This document shows, piece by piece, positions 9,556-16,990 of a stretch of 64,000 nt of DNA. The stretch lies in the IMG/VR virus record IMGVR_UViG_3300025646_005482, positions 1 to 64,000 of that record. One strand, given 5' to 3'. How positions within the stretch are numbered: position 1 is the first letter of the stretch; every line of letters begins with the position of its first letter. Below the pieces are notes generated by a model. The model did no database searches and was not told where the DNA came from. It worked only from the letters and a program-made list of their open reading frames with translations. Position numbers and translations under genes: made by a program. Source of the DNA: a virus.

Positions 9556-10089
9556 ATGACTACAGTATATACTAAGAAGCTTGTCCCCGTTCAGCGTAAG
9601 TTGGTACGGGATCTGATTCCCTATTGTGTACAAAAACTCATGCCTCGTATCAAAGATATTACGATCACCGTTGAAGGTGTCCAAGATCTTGTTGATAACG
9701 AAGGCATACACGGCGACGTGTTGTATGATTATGTAGATCCGACAGCACGTCCCAAAGAATTTACTATTCGAGTGGATTTAACCGACGATCTGCAAGAATT
9801 CGTACGCGTCATCTGCCACGAAATGGTCCATGTAAAACAGTGGGCCAGAGGCGAGATGTACAGCTACGACCGATACCCCAACTTGACTCGTTGGCACAAG
9901 CAGAAGATTGACCACGACAAGATGGATTACTATGAACAGCCATGGGAAATCGAAGCTCACGGCCGAGAAGAAGGTTTGACTGTCGGTTTCCTTCACGAAC
10001 ATCAAAAGTGGGCAGGATTTGTCTATGGAATTATTGAAGATTATAAAATGCAGCGACCCCAGCAAATGGTACTCAACCCACGTTGGTGA
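9556..10089 (+). CDS. zincin-like metallopeptidase
   Basis: ICHEMVHVKQ (HExxH) and QPWEIEA. Confidence 0.75.
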   Translation: MTTVYTKKLVPVQRKLVRDLIPYCVQKLMPRIKDITITVEGVQDLVDNEGIHGDVLYDYVDPTARPKEFTIRVDLTDDLQEFVRVICHEMVHVKQWARGEMYSYDRYPNLTRWHKQKIDHDKMDYYEQPWEIEAHGREEGLTVGFLHEHQKWAGFVYGIIEDYKMQRPQQMVLNPRW

Positions 10090-11668: not shown

Positions 11669-13188
11669 TAATTGATAATCCTATAATTGATGATTTTTAT
11701 CATGTTCTTTTTAGTGGTAAAAAGGAAGAGATCCGCGGTACACAAATTGAACGTTATTTCAATGATTTTAGGCATGTACGTATAGTTCCATATTATACTA
11801 TCAGAGAAAGGACAAACAATGAGCAAAAACCAATAAATCATTTTGCAACCGCGGTGCAATCATATCAATCGGCATTGCAAGATGGGATTGAGTTAAACAC
11901 TAAAACTTTTACTGATAGTCCCCAACGAGGCACGATAGAATTTTTCTATCGTTGGACCATCAAGATGAATTGGTTGATCAATGACATTCGAAAGAGAGGA
12001 TGTTGTGAACCAATATGGGGTGTAATTCGACCGAATCAAACAAAATTTAATGAAGTAGAATACAGCTATCACGTCCATCCTGGCACTTTTAGAATCAACG
12101 CCTTTGAATTGATGGATCTTAATCAAGATTGTGTAGTCTTCGACGCATTCGAAGTTTTTCATGATTTTCCAAAAGTTTCACTAGCAGATATTTTAAATCT
12201 ATATGATGATCCTGCTGGTACCACTGTCGAAGTCAGTATACTACAACAAGATACTAGCTACATGACTCCTCAAGTATTGAACATGAAATCTAAAGGAATC
12301 AATTGTAGTATGACACCTTCTCTCAAAAAGCATGAGAGGAAAGTACGACACATGTTCAAGCATCCTATTCAAATCTTTATTGGTTATGATAGTCGACATG
12401 GTGATGCTACCAATGTTTGTCACAACTCTATCATCGACAGATTGAATAGACAAACTAGTCTCGATCATGTCAAAATACATCATCTCGATACAAGTAAAAT
12501 TCCTGGTTGGACTAGAGAATATAAGAATCAATCTACTGAATTTTCATACTCTCGTTTTCTAGTACCATATTTGTCTGATTACAAAGGAATCAGTATATTC
12601 GTTGATGACGACTTTATCTTTAGACAAAATCCTCTTGCTCTTGCCTTATATTTGTCTGACGAGCATTCTGTTGCCTGCGTAAAACACAACTTTGAGCACA
12701 AATTTGATACCAAATTCAATAATGAAAAAGATGTATGGTATCCGAAGAAGTTATGGTCGAGTTTGATGGTGTTTAATAATGCCCATGAAGATTGTAAAAA
12801 ATTGACACTCGAAACTGTACAAGAACAAACAGGAAAATACTTGCATCAATTCGAATGGACTGATGAAGGCAAAATAGCAGATCTACCGAAGAAATGGAAT
12901 TGGTGTGAAGGCTATGATTATGTGATGGACGCGCATCAAAGCCACGCTTTGCATTGGACAAGAGGAGGACCGTGGGTAAAAGGTATGGATACCAGGCATA
13001 TTGCCTGTCTTGAACTCTATGACTATCATCGATATAGATCAGTACGTGGTACAGAAAAAGAGTTTACATATGAAGCAAAACAGGTTAGTATGTTAGATAT
13101 AAGAGAATATTATGACATCGAGAATCCAATCGATATTGCTGAAGACGGAACTCGAATATGTCAAGAAATAAATAGAGATGTTCGTTGA
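11665..13188 (+). CDS. two-domain protein: N-terminal unknown (ParB/Srx-like?) domain plus C-terminal GT-A glycosyltransferase
   Basis: C-terminal IFIGYDSR, STEFSYSRFLVPYL, FVDDDF, YPKKLWSSLMVFN, HWTRGGPW. Confidence 0.7.
   Translation: MIIDNPIIDDFYHVLFSGKKEEIRGTQIERYFNDFRHVRIVPYYTIRERTNNEQKPINHFATAVQSYQSALQDGIELNTKTFTDSPQRGTIEFFYRWTIKMNWLINDIRKRGCCEPIWGVIRPNQTKFNEVEYSYHVHPGTFRINAFELMDLNQDCVVFDAFEVFHDFPKVSLADILNLYDDPAGTTVEVSILQQDTSYMTPQVLNMKSKGINCSMTPSLKKHERKVRHMFKHPIQIFIGYDSRHGDATNVCHNSIIDRLNRQTSLDHVKIHHLDTSKIPGWTREYKNQSTEFSYSRFLVPYLSDYKGISIFVDDDFIFRQNPLALALYLSDEHSVACVKHNFEHKFDTKFNNEKDVWYPKKLWSSLMVFNNAHEDCKKLTLETVQEQTGKYLHQFEWTDEGKIADLPKKWNWCEGYDYVMDAHQSHALHWTRGGPWVKGMDTRHIACLELYDYHRYRSVRGTEKEFTYEAKQVSMLDIREYYDIENPIDIAEDGTRICQEINRDVR
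13167..13174 (+). promoter_or_regulatory. T4-type late promoter for the tmRNA
   Basis: AATAAATA (variant of TATAAATA) immediately upstream of the acceptor piece. Confidence 0.5.
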
Positions 13189-13441
13189 AGTTTGTATTAA
13201 GAAGTTTGGACGCGGGTTCGACTCCCGCCGCCTCCACCAATTTTGCGGTACCCAGTTTCGGGGGCGTTATGGATTCGACAGGCAACTGAAAGCAAATGGA
13301 GAACCGTCCATGAACGCTGACGTAAAACGGTGGTTCAAAACTATAACTGCCAATGATGACAGTTACTACGGTGATTACGCACTAGCTGCATGATCCCGCG
13401 GGGCGGCCACTGCCTTGTTATCCAAGTGTGGCATTTTTTTT
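13180..13441 (+). ncRNA. ssrA: circularly permuted (two-piece) tmRNA; tag (A)ANDDSYYGDYALAA
   Basis: Acceptor piece ends GGACGCGGGTTCGACTCCCGCCGCCTCCACCA (13208-13239), followed by a 20-nt spacer. The coding piece starts GGGGGCGTTATGGATTCGAC at 13260. The acceptor stem GGGGGCG/CGCCTCC has the G3.U70 pair. The tag ORF runs 13349-13393 after an ATAACT resume motif. Confidence 0.92.
13406..13441 (+). terminator. rho-independent terminator closing the tmRNA coding piece
   Basis: GCCAC..CTTG-TTATC-CAAG.GTGGC stem followed by a T8 run. Confidence 0.65.
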
Positions 13442-13466
13442 GCTATGAAAAAGCAAGGAGGAGTTT

Positions 13467-13955
13467 ATGTATAAGCTATTACTTGTTGTAATGTGTATGA
13501 TATGGTCAGAAGCTGCTGCTTCCGACGAGTGGATGCAAGATGAAATCCAATGTCTTGCGAAGAACATCTACTTTGAGGCGAGAGGAGAATCTCTGACCGG
13601 TAAAATTGCGGTCGCCAATGTCACGATGAATCGTGTGAAACACCATAAGTATCCTAGTACGGTTTGTGGTGTAGTGACTCAAGCTAAATGGTATGTCAAT
13701 TGGAAAGGCAATCGTTTACCTAAACGAAATCAGTGTCAGTTCAGCTGGTTTTGTGATGGTAATCCTGACGAGCCGGTTGACATGCGAGCATATCGAGACA
13801 GTTTACGTGTAGCAGAAATTGTGTATAATGGGTATAAAGATCTGACAAATGGATCTTTGTTTTACCATAATACGAAAGTAGAACCATATTGGGTCGCTTC
13901 GATGGTTAGAACTAAGAGCATTGGTGCTCACGTATTTTATAGGTATGATAGATGA
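13467..13955 (+). CDS. cell wall hydrolase, SleB / Hydrolase_2 family
   Basis: CLAKNIYFEARGE, AVANVTMNRV, CQFSWFCDG, IGAHVFY; signal peptide. Confidence 0.9.
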   Translation: MYKLLLVVMCMIWSEAAASDEWMQDEIQCLAKNIYFEARGESLTGKIAVANVTMNRVKHHKYPSTVCGVVTQAKWYVNWKGNRLPKRNQCQFSWFCDGNPDEPVDMRAYRDSLRVAEIVYNGYKDLTNGSLFYHNTKVEPYWVASMVRTKSIGAHVFYRYDR

Positions 13956-15619
13956 AATTTTATAGCTGCTTTCCAACAAGAACTCTCATGTTGGCGATAG
14001 TAGTCGGTGCAATCTTATTACTCGCTGCCTGTGGTGGTGGCGGTGGTTCAGGTTCACCAGACATTCCCGCAAATCCAGCACAAGGCACAGTCCTTTCATC
14101 TACATGTAGCGGCTACACGCTGGTCGAACAAGTTGCAGACGGCAACGGTGGTCAGAACGAAAGACGTACAGAAAACTCATCTCAGTGTGGATATACCGGT
14201 CCACCTCCCGCAGGCACATTTCTCGATGAATATTGTGATGGTTATACTCTCGTCACTGTTACCGCAGATGGTAATGGAGGTGAAGAGTATGATTACGATG
14301 AAAACAACGAAGAGGTTTGTGGTTATATTCCTCCACAATTTACACCAGCTGGCACACCACTAGGCGATCCCTATTGCGCTAGATCTCTGGCCGAAGATAG
14401 GTTCAGACAACTATGGGATTCTATCAGACATTTTCTTGGTGATGATCTTCTGCAAGATTATGCAGACGGTGAAGGTGGACAATATACAGAACGTGTACAA
14501 CATATCGCCGAAGAATGTTGGGTTCAAATGGAACCACCTGAAGATTGTCCTACGGTCGCGTCATCTACAGGTGATTCTCGATACGAGTTTTACACATGTG
14601 ATGGTATCAAACAGCTGACCGATATCAGTTTTCCGTATGATCCCGATAATTGGGATCTTGCCATCGTAGACATGTTCATCATCTTCGATACTGCACTCGA
14701 TAACGAAGAAGATCTTGATGGTATGACCGTACAAGATTTTATTCTAAAACAATTATGGGAAGCAAATCATTACTTCGCAGCATCAGGTGTATCAGTCAGA
14801 GTTAGATTAGCAGGATATAAAGAAGTCGCCGTAGCATCAGGAGACTTGTATAGACAGTACAATGCATTCTTCAGAGACCGATATGAATTTCAAGGAGTCA
14901 CATCGGCGCAACGACAAGCTAATGCTGACCTGATGTTCTTGTTCAAGAAAAGACCAGATAATCCCATTGCGTGTGGTGTTGCACAGTTAGACGGTACTCG
15001 TGGCGTCACTTACACGAGAGGAATCATACAATGTTTCCATAACAGTGTGTTCCAAGAAAATGCACAAACACGTTACTATGAACGAGCACAAGAAACATTC
15101 GTTCATGAGATTGGCCACCTGTTTGGTTTACAACATGAATGGAAAGATGCATCAAGCACTGGATTATTCGAACACTCGTATGGTTATAACTTGCCCGGAT
15201 ATAACCCACGAAAAGACGATCCAGCATATGAGGGTGTATGGAGCGGATACGGTACCATCATGAGTTATGCTGATCTAGCGACTGGTCGTTTCTCTGATCC
15301 TGACGTCACGTGTTATTTTCCGGAAGAAGCAGGAGAATATGCAGGTCAAGCAGTTGTCATGGGAACAAATGGTGGATGTTTCTGCTTGGATCCAGTAGAA
15401 GAACAACCACCGCCCACAGATTCTCATCAGCACCTACAGAGAGTGAGATATATAATTAGTCAGCTGAGTGAATTAGAGCATGATGTTGGATCAGTTTACG
15501 GTACTGCACCAGCATTTTGGAATACACAGCCTATTTTTGAAGAGGATCTTGGTGATCTATCGAACATCGAGATGATTAAACGAGAAATGGACAGAAACCA
15601 AAACATCTGCTTATTTTGA
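13952..15619 (+). CDS. lipoprotein with Cys-rich repeats and a reprolysin/M12B-like zinc metallopeptidase domain
   Basis: Lipobox LLLAAC-GGGGGSG; repeated GTxL..C.GYTLV...ADGNGG...CGY units; HEIGHLFGLQH (HExxHxxGxxH) and Met-turn TIMSY. Confidence 0.8.
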   Translation: MKFYSCFPTRTLMLAIVVGAILLLAACGGGGGSGSPDIPANPAQGTVLSSTCSGYTLVEQVADGNGGQNERRTENSSQCGYTGPPPAGTFLDEYCDGYTLVTVTADGNGGEEYDYDENNEEVCGYIPPQFTPAGTPLGDPYCARSLAEDRFRQLWDSIRHFLGDDLLQDYADGEGGQYTERVQHIAEECWVQMEPPEDCPTVASSTGDSRYEFYTCDGIKQLTDISFPYDPDNWDLAIVDMFIIFDTALDNEEDLDGMTVQDFILKQLWEANHYFAASGVSVRVRLAGYKEVAVASGDLYRQYNAFFRDRYEFQGVTSAQRQANADLMFLFKKRPDNPIACGVAQLDGTRGVTYTRGIIQCFHNSVFQENAQTRYYERAQETFVHEIGHLFGLQHEWKDASSTGLFEHSYGYNLPGYNPRKDDPAYEGVWSGYGTIMSYADLATGRFSDPDVTCYFPEEAGEYAGQAVVMGTNGGCFCLDPVEEQPPPTDSHQHLQRVRYIISQLSELEHDVGSVYGTAPAFWNTQPIFEEDLGDLSNIEMIKREMDRNQNICLF

Positions 15620-15783
15620 AACACTTAGAAGAAAACGGGATGACGTACTTTGGCCACCTCAGACGAGCGTGGTCGTTGTCGTTCGTCTTATTCATACATG
15701 GATTGTTTCCTGAAATATGGAAAACAAAAGCGACGGATATATTATTAGATGAAAAAGAGAAACTACACAGCAGAGACAGTTAG
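15616..15783 (+). CDS. small DUF6356-like protein
   Basis: Read manually: [42 protein letters not shown]... (TTG start). Confidence 0.5.
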
Positions 15784-16990
15784 ATCTCTACAAGGTTCTG
15801 TACAAATTGAACACACGCTTGCAAAAATGGGGGCAAGCAAGCTGCGTAAACTCTTTGAAGAACACGATTACATTAACACGTTTGGAGCATACAACGGTCA
15901 ACAAGCTATTCAACATGTTAAAGCAGGGTTGCATGCGATTTATTTGTCTGGATGGCAAGTTGCAGCATCTCAGAACTCAGCTGGTGAGGTATACCCTGAT
16001 CAGAGCCTTTATCCTGTTAACAGTGTGCCTGATGTTGTTCGTAACATTAACAATGCCTTCAGACGACAAGATCAAATCGAATACGCCGAATCGGGAACCG
16101 GGTTTCCCTTCGCACCGATTATAGCAGACGCAGAAGCAGGATTTGGAGGAGTCTTAAATGCTTACGAATTGGCACGAAATCTTATTGAGGCAGGCGCAGC
16201 GGCCGTCCACTTCGAAGACCAACTCTCCTCAGCCAAAAAGTGTGGACACCTCGGAGGAAAAGTCCTCATCCCCACCGACCAAGCTATTCGTAACCTCAAC
16301 GCTGCTCGGCTTGCTGCTGATGTGGCTGATACTGATACTGTTATCATTGCGCGAACCGACGCAGAATCGGCTAAACTCATGGTCTCTGACCAACATGTCA
16401 TCGACAAAAAATACGTTAAGTATTACGGAGGTCAGGGAGGAGCCAAGATCAGAGGAAAAACATCAGACGGATTCTACGAAATCGAGGAAGGTCGAGGACT
16501 AGAATTTGGTTGTGAACGTGGCGCAGCGTATGCTGAATACGCCGACCTCGTATGGTGTGAAACTTCCAAACCATGTCTCAAAGAAGCAAAGCGATTCTCT
16601 GACGCTGTGAGAGGGTCAGTTCCTGATGCGATGCTTGCATACAACTGTTCACCATCTTTCAACTGGCGCAAGTCCATTCCTGGTGATGCAGAACTACGAG
16701 ACTTCCAATATGAACTCGGTAAGATGGGATTCAAATTCCAATTCATTACTCTTGCTGGTTTCCATGCAACGAATCATGCTATCTTCCAATTCGCAAGGTC
16801 TTATAAGAAAATGGGCATGTTGGCATATAGCTACTTGCAAGAAGAAGAGTTTGCAGCTGAAGAGTTTGGATACACAAGCACTAAACATCAACGCGAAGTT
16901 GGCGTAGGTTACTTCGATCGAATTGCAACAGCATTGGGTTCGTCATCTACAGCCGCTATGAAAGGATCAACCGAGGAGGAACAATTTTGA
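15749..16990 (+). CDS. aceA: isocitrate lyase
   Basis: [83 protein letters not shown]. Confidence 0.97.

What the first reader, a model, noticed from the sequence alone, without database searches (positions are those of the whole stretch)
13167..13441. Phage-encoded circularly permuted two-piece tmRNA with a gammaproteobacterial-type tag
Seen in sequence: the tmRNA 3' end (T-arm GCGGG-TTCGACT-CCCGC plus CGCCTCC-A-CCA, ending at 13239) comes BEFORE the 5' end (GGGGGCG-TTATGGATTCGAC, starting at 13260), separated by 20 nt. The two ends form a 7-bp acceptor stem with the G3.U70 alanine determinant. Inter-piece helix 2 can pair (CAGGC/GTTTG, GCAAAT/GTTTGT, GAAC/GTTC). A pk1-like element follows, then ATAACT, the tag ANDDSYYGDYALAA-stop, and a terminator; there is no room for pk2-pk4. 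Established: permuted tmRNAs are typical of Alphaproteobacteria, marine picocyanobacteria and some Betaproteobacteria, whereas ANDxxY..YALAA tags are typical of one-piece gammaproteobacterial tmRNAs. Inference: this may be an independent permutation and miniaturisation event in a phage. It would be expressed from a late promoter (AATAAATA, 13167) to rescue ribosomes stalled by host RNase or anticodon-nuclease defences. No smpB lies in the window, so it would use host SmpB.
Basis: partly seen in the sequence, partly recalled or inferred. Interest (0 to 1): 0.9.

Follow-up and report, generated by a model that had tools for sequence, protein, structure and literature searches.

The report
Two-piece tmRNA gene in phage
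An uncultured T4-like water phage carries a real, well-conserved gene for the ribosome-rescue RNA (tmRNA) written in swapped order, but this belongs to a large, already reported family of phage two-piece tmRNAs rather than being a new, independent invention.

Summary
ARAGORN and Rfam tmRNA_permuted (111 bits, cut-off 47) call a circularly permuted tmRNA at 13180-13436 (+) with tag ANDDSYYGDYALAA. Compensatory changes support helix 2 and pseudoknot 1.

Phage two-piece tmRNAs are published (OM43 phage Melnitz, pelagimyophages, cyanophages; PMC9004378), and this scan has met them often on other DNA. The window's gene belongs to a 12-member clade of viral contigs, syntenic in T4-like phages.

That clade shares two features with the Melnitz-like clade:
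- a NATAAATA late promoter at a fixed distance;
- in its long-spacer members, the spacer-flanking stems, also found in bacterial alpha and beta two-piece genes.

AND-type tags occur in bacterial beta two-piece tmRNAs, and 12-15-residue ...YALAA tags are usual in phage tmRNAs, so the tag is not an anomaly. Loss of pk2-pk4 is also normal for the beta-type layout. An independent permutation is therefore unlikely, although trees cannot fix the deep placement (AU tests reject nothing).

The gene scores below the cut-offs of the alpha, beta and cyano models. It combines a canonical T arm with Melnitz-like helix 2 and tag.

No SmpB and no tRNA lie in the 160-kb record. Verdict: new member of a known kind, modest interest.

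The parts
13167..13174 (+). AATAAATA, a T4-type late-promoter-like motif. The predicted start lies about 6 nt downstream, at the first base of the acceptor piece.
   Evidence: ATAAATA is invariant in 7 of 8 aligned relatives while its flanks vary. It sits at the same distance from ACC (64-72 nt) in 29 of 36 other viral permuted tmRNAs. Strand bias in the genome is 46:8. No -35 element is present. Function is inferred.
13180..13239 (+). Acceptor piece. Helix-2 3' strand: 13180-13183, 13190-13195, 13197-13201, 13204-13208. T arm: 13212-13228. Acceptor 3' strand: 13229-13235. Discriminator A: 13236. Encoded CCA: 13237-13239.
   Evidence: Its first 9 nt overlap the stop region of the upstream ORF, which ends at 13188.
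13240..13259 (+). Intervening spacer of 20 nt, expected to be removed during maturation.
   Evidence: It is not conserved: 13 nt in L024, and 56-151 nt with flanking stems in L106, L110, L089 and L096. Removal is inferred from the Caulobacter two-piece tmRNA, as cited in PMC9004378.
13260..13304 (+). 5' end of the coding piece. Acceptor 5' strand GGGGGCG: 13260-13266. D-loop analogue UUAUGGAUUCGA: 13267-13278. Helix-2 5' strand: 13279-13283, 13286-13290, 13292-13297, 13301-13304.
   Evidence: Pairs G13180-C13304, U13191-A13296 and A13200-U13287 change on both sides in L024.
13305..13337 (+). Pseudoknot 1. P3 is CGUC (13305-13308) with GACG (13319-13322). P4 is UGAAC (13311-13315) with GUUCA (13333-13337).
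   Evidence: P3 has one compensatory pair and a paired insertion in L024. P4 is invariant. The Rfam models align P3.
13349..13393 (+). Tag reading frame: GCC resume codon, ANDDSYYGDYALAA, TGA stop. It is preceded by UAUAACU, with A-U-A at positions -6 to -4.
   Evidence: ARAGORN. The same or a near-identical tag occurs in L010, L021-L023, L002, L024 and L034. That A-U-A at -6 to -4 matches the E. coli frame-setting bases is from my own knowledge, not tested here.
13397..13441 (+). Post-tag element: CGCGGGGCG, then hairpin GCCAC (13406-13410) / GUGGC (13428-13432) with loop UGCCUUGUUAUCCAAGU, then A and a T8 run (13434-13441).
   Evidence: 13397-13432 is almost invariant in the 8 aligned members (one loop position varies), although the flanks vary. 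The loop motif CCUUGUUAYC(C)AAR (up to 2 changes) is also in 10 of 14 bacterial beta two-piece tmRNAs, and similar loops occur in viral one-piece tmRNAs. The T run is absent in L021, L024 and L034. The terminator scan does not call it.

Best explanation
This is a functional two-piece (circularly permuted) tmRNA gene of an uncultured T4-like phage. It belongs to a large family of such genes that circulates among aquatic T4-like phages.

Shown here:
- the permuted gene order;
- an alanine-type acceptor stem that forms only between the two pieces;
- a T arm, a three-part inter-piece helix 2, pseudoknot 1, a 14-codon tag frame ending in ALAA-stop, and a conserved post-tag hairpin;
- purifying selection, with compensatory changes;
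- conserved placement between a 517-residue ORF and a SleB-like hydrolase gene in related phage contigs.

Inferred mechanism:
1. Transcription starts about 6 nt after the late promoter AATAAATA, at the first base of the acceptor piece.
2. Host RNase P cuts at G13260, and host 3' trimming exposes CCA at 13239. The 20-nt spacer is lost, and the two pieces stay joined by the acceptor stem and helix 2.
3. Host AlaRS charges the RNA through G3.U70. Host SmpB and EF-Tu deliver it to ribosomes stalled on broken messages late in infection.
4. Translation resumes at GCC 13349 and adds ANDDSYYGDYALAA. The ribosome is freed and the product is marked for ClpXP-type proteolysis.

The likely benefit is to keep ribosome rescue and amino-acid recycling running once host ssrA expression has been shut off.

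The gene was not invented in this phage. It descends from a permuted ancestor shared with the Melnitz-like phage tmRNAs, and probably with the bacterial alpha and beta two-piece genes.
For: Detection: ARAGORN and RF04321.

Structure: 99.7% of cells paired, 4 compensatory pairs, 1 of 500 shuffles as high. Helix 2 has the same three-part form with different sequences across viral and bacterial two-piece tmRNAs.

Selection and synteny:
- The tmRNA is 89-97% identical among contigs over the whole ARAGORN gene, while the upstream protein is only 50-71% identical.
- The tmRNA lies between the 517-residue ORF and the SleB-like gene in L002, L010, L022 and L023 (L019 shows the upstream ORF only).
- Indels that are not multiples of three rule out the 71-codon ORF 13178-13393.

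Phage context: DNA polymerase, UvsX, gp41-type helicase, primase and NrdAB.

Family:
- 23 viral contigs carry the junction pattern.
- 80 viral contigs (the cap) carry the tag-end pattern; of the 74 new ones ARAGORN permuted.
- The window clade has 12 rows at 98/100*. It is sister, at 84/84, to a group of bacterial alpha plus Melnitz-like viral tmRNAs.
- The sister clade matches the Melnitz SsrA at 79% identity.

Shared gene-organisation characters: the late promoter lies at a fixed distance, and spacer-flanking stems are shared with the Melnitz-like, alpha and beta genes.

Literature: 53 two-piece tmRNAs in isolate phages, mostly aquatic (PMC9004378).
Against: - There is no expression or processing evidence.
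- No SmpB lies in the record, which is 89% complete, so function depends on an unknown host's SmpB.
- The gene is below the gathering scores of all three lineage models: beta 78.6 of 84, cyano 57.6 of 70, alpha 40.6 of 50.
- The deep placement is unresolved. AU tests do not reject grouping the clade with beta two-piece, alpha two-piece or one-piece tmRNAs (p 0.15-0.41).
- The window's own spacer lacks the shared flanking stems. Only its relatives keep them.
- Minimum-energy folding of the precursor is no better than shuffles (z -0.82).
- A tRNA-like molecule could also act as a competitor of host tmRNA rather than as a tagger.
Confidence: 0.8

Rival explanations
1. One reading: an independent permutation and miniaturisation of a one-piece gammaproteobacterial-type tmRNA that happened in this phage lineage.
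For: - The T arm, acceptor stem and D-loop analogue are of the canonical beta/gamma type, 88-97% identical to one-piece and beta forms against 74% for alpha and Melnitz-like forms.
- The resume and tag segment is closest to viral one-piece tmRNAs (68%). It closely resembles a one-piece tmRNA with tag ANDDNYDYALAA on a phage-like contig of a MAG.
- AU tests do not reject a clade of the window group with one-piece forms (p 0.24-0.41).
Against: - Spacer-flanking stems exist only in permuted genes. Window-clade members L106, L089 and L135 share them with the Melnitz-like clade and with bacterial alpha and beta two-piece genes.
- The late promoter sits at the same distance as in the Melnitz-like clade.
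- The layout is identical to the beta model, end to end.
- The best tree places the clade among permuted forms.
- AND-type tags are native to beta two-piece tmRNAs.
Confidence: 0.07
2. A recent capture of the host's own two-piece ssrA, for example from a betaproteobacterium with a permuted gene, carried as a passenger.
For: - beta_tmRNA is the best lineage model.
- Beta two-piece bacteria encode ANDE..ALAA or ANDESYALAA tags.
- Some viral contigs (L011, L003, L017) and isolates (Alcaligenes phage QDWS595, Acinetobacter phage BUCT628) score above the beta cut-off.
Against: - True bacterial beta members score 160-331 bits, against 78.6 here.
- No bacterial chromosome among 185,579 species' genomes matched the junction pattern. 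The only two hits are phage-like MAG fragments. The pattern was tuned to the phage sequence, so this is weak evidence.
- The clade is monophyletic, viral and syntenic in phage contigs.
- The tag is 14 residues, not 10.
Confidence: 0.05
3. A decoy rather than a rescuer: the RNA titrates host SmpB or competes with host tmRNA, or it re-tags proteins with a phage-specific degron to change their fate.
For: - The tRNA-like-domain-only RNA of mycobacteriophage DS6A inhibits tmRNA when expressed in E. coli (PMC4131195 and PMC11915505).
- The phage has no SmpB.
- The tag is 4 residues longer than the host-type tags seen here. An engineered four-residue insertion, AANDENY-SENY-ALAA, is degraded by ClpXP at least as well as the wild type (PMC8512704).
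Against: - The complete tag frame, the resume context, pk1 and the ALAA-stop are all conserved. A pure decoy would not need them.
- This reading overlaps with the best explanation on tagging.
Confidence: 0.07
4. A 71-codon protein gene (ORF 13178-13393) whose resemblance to tmRNA is only by chance.
For: The tag frame is open back to an ATG at 13178.
Against: - Relatives differ by an 8-nt deletion and by +1 insertions inside the ORF.
- There is no ribosome-binding site.
- RNA covariation is present.
- The covariance-model E-value is 8.5e-21.
Confidence: 0.01

Closest known systems
SsrA of Methylophilales (OM43) phage Melnitz and related pelagimyophage-type contigs (Buchholz et al. 2022, PMC9004378; MZ577097)
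   Same: - A two-piece tmRNA in a marine T4-like myophage without SmpB.
- TATAAATA just upstream, at the same distance.
- A 14-residue tag ending in DYALAA (ANDNYVPVDYALAA).
- pk1 of the same P3/P4 design, followed by the same CAAAAACUAUAAYUGC resume context.
- Sister position in the tree, with bacterial alpha forms.
   Different: - Melnitz has an alpha-type T arm (GGGGGCAGUACCC) and scores 106.7 bits on alpha_tmRNA. The window has a canonical T arm and scores 40.6 on alpha and 78.6 on beta.
- Melnitz has a 143-nt spacer with flanking stems and a glutamine riboswitch after the gene. The window has a 20-nt spacer and no riboswitch.
- The neighbouring genes differ.
Betaproteobacterial two-piece tmRNA (Rfam RF01850)
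   Same: - The same order of elements from end to end.
- The same canonical T arm.
- AND-type tags.
- A post-tag hairpin with the loop CCUUGUUAYCAAAG.
   Different: - Bacterial members score 160-331 bits; the window scores 78.6, under the cut-off.
- Bacterial tags have 10 residues.
- The helix 2 and pk1 sequences differ: the pk1 loop is AGGCGAU in bacteria and CAUGAACGCU here.
- CCA is often not encoded in the bacterial genes.
Alphaproteobacterial two-piece tmRNA (Caulobacter type, Rfam RF01849)
   Same: - Permuted order and tags longer than 10 residues, such as ANDNFAPVAVAA.
- Spacer-flanking stems like those of window-clade relatives.
- The tree puts the window clade next to alpha plus Melnitz-like forms.
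   Different: - The alpha T loop GGCAGUA and the AGGAUCGAC D-loop analogue are absent here.
- The alpha model score of 40.6 is below its cut-off of 50.
One-piece phage tmRNAs (mycobacteriophage Bxz1 group, Bacillus phage G; PMC4131195) and the viral one-piece forms found here (L102, L104, L108)
   Same: - Phage-borne tmRNA without SmpB.
- The viral one-piece forms share extended ...YALAA tags and a similar post-tag hairpin.
   Different: - They keep the standard gene order and keep sequence between the tag hairpin and the 3' tRNA-like half.
- They form a separate clade, 99/96*.

Membership tests
Two-piece (permuted) tmRNA, Rfam RF04321 | Covariance-model score at or above the gathering score | tested here: met
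   111 bits against 47, full length 1-213.
Two-piece (permuted) tmRNA, Rfam RF04321 | The 3' half of the tRNA-like domain (T arm, acceptor 3' strand, CCA) lies upstream of the 5' half | tested here: met
   CCA ends at 13239 and G1 is at 13260.
Two-piece (permuted) tmRNA, Rfam RF04321 | Alanine identity: 7-bp acceptor stem with G3.U70 and discriminator A | tested here: met
   GGGGGCG pairs with CGCCUCC, with G13262.U13233 and A13236. Invariant in 8 relatives.
Two-piece (permuted) tmRNA, Rfam RF04321 | An inter-piece helix 2 that holds the pieces together, kept by compensatory change | tested here: met
   19 pairs in helices 1 and 2, of which 3 change on both sides. The same three-part helix, with other sequences, occurs across the family.
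Two-piece (permuted) tmRNA, Rfam RF04321 | A tag frame that starts at an Ala resume codon and ends in a hydrophobic A-L-A-A plus stop | tested here: met
   GCC 13349 through TGA 13393, ANDDSYYGDYALAA.
Two-piece (permuted) tmRNA, Rfam RF04321 | The precursor is cut into two RNAs in vivo, and trans-translation activity depends on SmpB | not testable with these tools
No SmpB lies in the phage record.
beta_tmRNA, Rfam RF01850 | Score at or above the gathering score (84 bits) | tested here: not met
   78.6 bits. Clade members score 69-84, and bacterial members 160-331.
beta_tmRNA, Rfam RF01850 | Element order: leader, helix 2 strand, T arm, acceptor, spacer, acceptor, helix 2 strand, pk1 stem, tag, hairpin, terminal hairpin | tested here: met
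   Aligned 1-331 of 331. The terminal GC-rich hairpin is replaced by a U run.
alpha_tmRNA, Rfam RF01849 | Score at or above 50 bits, and the alpha-type T loop GGCAGUA | tested here: not met
   40.6 bits on a partial match. The T loop here is UUCGACU; compare the bacterial alpha sequences.
cyano_tmRNA, Rfam RF01851 | Score at or above 70 bits | tested here: not met
   57.6 bits.
Melnitz-type tmRNA of marine T4-like myophages | A T4-type late promoter directly upstream, an extended ...YALAA tag, and a T4-like phage context | tested here: met
Melnitz-type tmRNA of marine T4-like myophages | A glutamine riboswitch at the 3' end of the gene | tested here: not met
   The only Rfam hit in the window is tmRNA_permuted. 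Melnitz shows RF01739 at 52.8 bits. Buchholz et al. say the riboswitch is common but not defining.

The most novel reading that the evidence does not exclude
The window clade may be a modular hybrid. It would be a Melnitz/alpha-like phage tmRNA scaffold (promoter position, spacer stems, helix 2, long tag) whose tRNA-like head was exchanged for a canonical beta/gamma-type T arm and acceptor stem, perhaps to fit the SmpB, AlaRS or EF-Tu of a new host.

More broadly, T4-like phages may be a reservoir in which permuted tmRNA modules recombine, and from which bacterial two-piece lineages could have been seeded. The segment-wise identities are mosaic in this sense, and no tree topology is rejected.
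Probability: 0.2. Interest if true: 0.5.

Novelty: new member of a known kind. Interest (0 to 1): 0.28.

Why it matters
Phage tmRNAs are widespread, but nobody has shown what they do. This case adds three things:
- a clean example in a phage whose only stable-RNA gene is the tmRNA (no tRNA, no SmpB);
- a late promoter placed so that transcription starts at the first base of the acceptor piece;
- a tRNA-like head of a different type from that of its nearest published relative.

This makes it a reasonable construct for testing whether phage tmRNAs rescue ribosomes late in infection, and which parts must match the host. It does not change the picture of how permuted tmRNAs arose.

Tried and rejected
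- GenBank phages, near and distant searches with the window's gene. These gave only 36-47-nt hits to the tRNA-like part in Alcaligenes phage QDWS595 and Acinetobacter phage BUCT628, and no close isolate.
- Minimum-energy fold of the precursor. It recovers the T arm and the post-tag hairpin but not the acceptor stem or helix 2; z is -0.82, so it is uninformative.
- Terminator scan: none called.
- I first took the post-tag loop motif as a character shared only with beta two-piece tmRNAs. I dropped this when viral one-piece tmRNAs showed similar loops.
- I first read the close match of the tag region to a one-piece tmRNA in a MAG as a host clue. That contig is phage-like, with portal, baseplate and a tRNA cluster, and the MAG has another tmRNA.
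- Only that contig matched among 401 sampled genomes of the class.
- Trees of 46, 74 and 100 sequences have an unresolved backbone, and the AU tests reject nothing.
- The Sharkady and Williams 2004 paper is not held. The supplements of the tmRNA database paper held as text have no phage detail.
- Genomes flagged unpublished (G041, G143, G651) or limited (G459) appeared in searches.
Full report
**1. What is there**

ARAGORN reports a single permuted tmRNA in the window, 13147-13484 on the + strand, with the tag ANDDSYYGDYALAA. Rfam's merged model for permuted tmRNAs (RF04321) matches 13180-13393 over its full length at 111 bits, against a gathering score of 47.

Reading the sequence gives these parts:
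- T arm GCGGG/UUCGACU/CCCGC at 13212-13228.
- Acceptor 3' strand CGCCUCC, discriminator A and CCA, ending at 13239.
- A 20-nt spacer.
- Acceptor 5' strand GGGGGCG from 13260. This gives seven pairs with G3.U70.
- The D-loop analogue UUAUGGAUUCGA.
- Helix 2 between the two pieces, in four short segments.
- Pseudoknot 1. P3 is CGUC 13305-13308 with GACG 13319-13322. P4 is UGAAC 13311-13315 with GUUCA 13333-13337.
- The context UAUAACU, then resume codon GCC at 13349, and stop TGA at 13391-13393.
- A hairpin GCCAC/GUGGC (13406-13432) with a 17-nt loop, followed by T8.

**2. Is it more than chance, and is it under selection?**

A junction pattern scan of IMG/VR gave 23 viral contigs. Seven of them, plus one 538-bp MAG fragment, carry near-identical genes.

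On their alignment, 99.7% of cells of my structure form standard pairs, against 40-48% when partners are slid. Four pairs change on both sides: three in helix 2 and one in pk1 stem P3, all in L024. Only 1 of 500 shuffles reaches this.

Over the whole ARAGORN gene the RNA is 89-97% identical between the closest contigs (77% for L024). The protein encoded just upstream is only 50-71% identical.

The gene sits between that 517-residue ORF and a SleB-like cell-wall hydrolase gene in L002, L010, L022 and L023; the short contig L019 shows only the upstream ORF.

The tag frame is open back to an ATG at 13178, giving a 71-codon ORF. Relatives differ by an 8-nt deletion and by +1 insertions within it. 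It is therefore not a protein gene.

**3. Context**

The window comes from a 160,330-bp IMG/VR virus record, estimated 89% complete. It encodes T4-type DNA polymerase, UvsX, a gp41-type helicase, primase and NrdAB. The whole record has no SmpB. It has no tRNA gene either, so the tmRNA is its only stable-RNA gene.

**4. Promoter and end**

ATAAATA at 13168-13174 is invariant in 7 of 8 relatives, while the flanking bases and the amino acids they encode vary. The motif is not enriched overall in the window (14 found, 17 expected), but 13 of the 14 copies are on the + strand. In the whole genome the ratio is 46 to 8.

A wider set of viral permuted tmRNAs gives stronger support. In 29 of 36, NATAAATA (mostly TATAAATA) ends 64-72 nt before the ACC of the acceptor piece. 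The window's distance is 64. A T4-type late promoter that starts transcription at the first base of the acceptor piece is thus well supported as a family trait, though not shown experimentally.

The 'terminator' is weaker. The scan does not call it, and the T run is missing in L021, L024 and L034. In those contigs the RNA is probably co-transcribed with the downstream gene.

**5. Is it a new, independent permutation?**

First, phage two-piece tmRNAs are published. Buchholz et al. 2022 described one in OM43 phage Melnitz. They counted 53 ARAGORN-permuted tmRNAs among isolate phages, 50 of them from aquatic sources. Some of these phages infect Stenotrophomonas, Citrobacter, Bordetella and Pseudomonas (PMC9004378).

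Second, AND-type tags are not confined to one-piece forms. I fetched 14 bacterial beta two-piece tmRNAs. They encode ANDE[RHQN]FA[LI]AA or ANDESYALAA.

Third, the lack of pk2-pk4 is the normal beta-type layout. The window aligns to RF01850 from position 1 to 331.

Fourth, the long tag is ordinary for phages. Among the 74 new ones ARAGORN permuted and 15 one-piece tmRNAs. Their tags are 12-15 residues long and end in YALAA.

**6. Where does it belong?**

No lineage model reaches its cut-off: beta 78.6 of 84, cyano 57.6 of 70, alpha 40.6 of 50, standard 30.8 of 47. True bacterial beta members score 160-331 bits. Viral L011, L003 and L017 score 130-147. The isolates Alcaligenes phage QDWS595 and Acinetobacter phage BUCT628 score about 94.

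I built a 100-row tree. One-piece genes were rearranged in silico into the permuted order for alignment. In that tree:
- The window's clade has 12 rows (98/100*).
- It is sister, at 84/84, to a group supported at 99/95*. That group holds 25 bacterial alpha two-piece tmRNAs and 13 viral ones, among them Melnitz.

The backbone is weak. AU tests do not reject joining the clade to beta two-piece, alpha two-piece or one-piece forms (p 0.15-0.41).

Segment by segment, the gene is a mosaic:
- T arm and acceptor stem are 88-97% identical to beta and one-piece forms, but 74% to alpha and Melnitz-like forms.
- Helix 2 and the tag segment are closest to Melnitz-like and viral one-piece forms.
- The post-tag hairpin is closest to beta forms.

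**7. Characters that bear on the permutation itself**

Window-clade members with longer spacers (L106/L113, L089/L093, L135, L110) start the spacer with AUAA(A/G)C(A/G)CA... and end it with ...UGUG(U/C)UU(A/U)UGAU. This forms a stem that extends the acceptor helix. The same flanks occur in:
- the Melnitz-like clade (Melnitz, L083, L101, L149);
- bacterial alpha genes (L155: AUAAACACAC...UGUUUUUGAU);
- bacterial beta genes (L063: AUAAGUGCA...UACUUAUGAU).

This sequence exists only in permuted genes and is discarded from the mature RNA. Its similarity is therefore better explained by common descent than by convergence. Together with the shared promoter position, this makes a separate permutation event in this phage unlikely. 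I estimate about 7%. The window's own 20-nt spacer looks like a deletion derivative.

A recent capture from a host is also unlikely. The junction pattern found no bacterial chromosome among 185,579 species' genomes, only two phage-like MAG fragments. The pattern was tuned to the phage sequence, so this evidence is weak.

**8. Mechanism**

Shown: all sequence determinants known for tmRNA are present and conserved.

Inferred: late transcription; RNase P cleavage at G13260; 3' trimming to CCA 13239; charging by host AlaRS; delivery by host SmpB and EF-Tu; tagging with ANDDSYYGDYALAA; and degradation through the ALAA end.

The tag is four residues longer than the 10-residue gamma and beta tags seen here. 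An engineered AANDENY-SENY-ALAA tag is degraded by ClpXP at least as well as the wild type (PMC8512704). The extension is therefore compatible with proteolysis. Whether it changes adaptor use is speculation.

A decoy role, like that of the tRNA-like-domain-only RNA of phage DS6A, cannot be excluded. It would not explain the conserved tag frame.

**9. Verdict**

This is a real, selected phage two-piece tmRNA. It is a new member, in a divergent clade, of a known and common kind. This scan has met phage two-piece tmRNAs many times on other DNA. Interest is modest.

Noticed in passing
L082, L084, L091, L099, L125, L127 (spacer of 160 nt); L078, L130, L139, L147 (248 nt); L101; L096, L133: In related viral tmRNA genes the spacer between the acceptor and coding pieces holds small ORFs preceded by GGAG. 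One is a 38-residue hydrophobic peptide, MKTPLVREVSKWMFKAYIVWSICADITLLAGLIYLVFF, which shows conservative changes between contigs. Another has 73 residues. In the window-clade members L096 and L133, a basic ORF runs on into the 5' end of the coding piece. Other agents of this scan have reported protein genes in such spacers.
   Followed up: partly
window 13397-13432, and the same place in L002-L024, L089, L106, L110, L135: The post-tag segment CGCGGGGCGGCCACUGCCUUGUUAUCCAAGUGUGGC is almost invariant across the 8 aligned clade members and changes only slightly in the further members L089, L106, L110 and L135. It is more conserved than the tag itself. Similar loops (CCUUGUUAYCAAAG) occur in bacterial beta two-piece and viral one-piece tmRNAs. 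I could not find out what binds it.
   Followed up: partly
L076 (G063:C169:4000-20785), tmRNA at 9716-10089: A 20.8-kb contig binned into a bacterial MAG is phage-like: portal, baseplate hub, methyltransferases and four tRNAs. It carries a one-piece tmRNA with tag ANDDNYDYALAA, whose tag region is nearly identical to the window's. The MAG's other tmRNA, on contig C213, has tag GNSHQLQMAA.
   Followed up: partly
L151 (Melnitz, MZ577097) 1489-1517: Upstream of the Melnitz ssrA, a sigma-70-like TTGACA-17 nt-TATAAA overlaps the T4 late motif TATAAATA. The same site could therefore serve both early and late transcription. The paper calls it an early promoter.
   Followed up: no
window 13467-13955, 13952-15619, 15749-16990: Directly downstream of the tmRNA lie a SleB-type cell-wall hydrolase (PF07486), an M12B/reprolysin-like metallopeptidase and a full-length isocitrate lyase. 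These are unusual cargo for a T4-like phage.
   Followed up: no
whole record G000 (160,330 bp): The phage has no tRNA gene at all, so the tmRNA is its only detectable stable-RNA gene.
   Followed up: yes
L025 (Alcaligenes phage vB_Af_QDWS595, 1444-1820) and L026 (Acinetobacter phage BUCT628, 1455-1788): Both isolate genomes carry permuted tmRNA genes, with tags ANDNVYAAAA and ANDNVFGAKTLAA. Both score above the beta_tmRNA cut-off. Neither gene is annotated in the GenBank records.
   Followed up: partly
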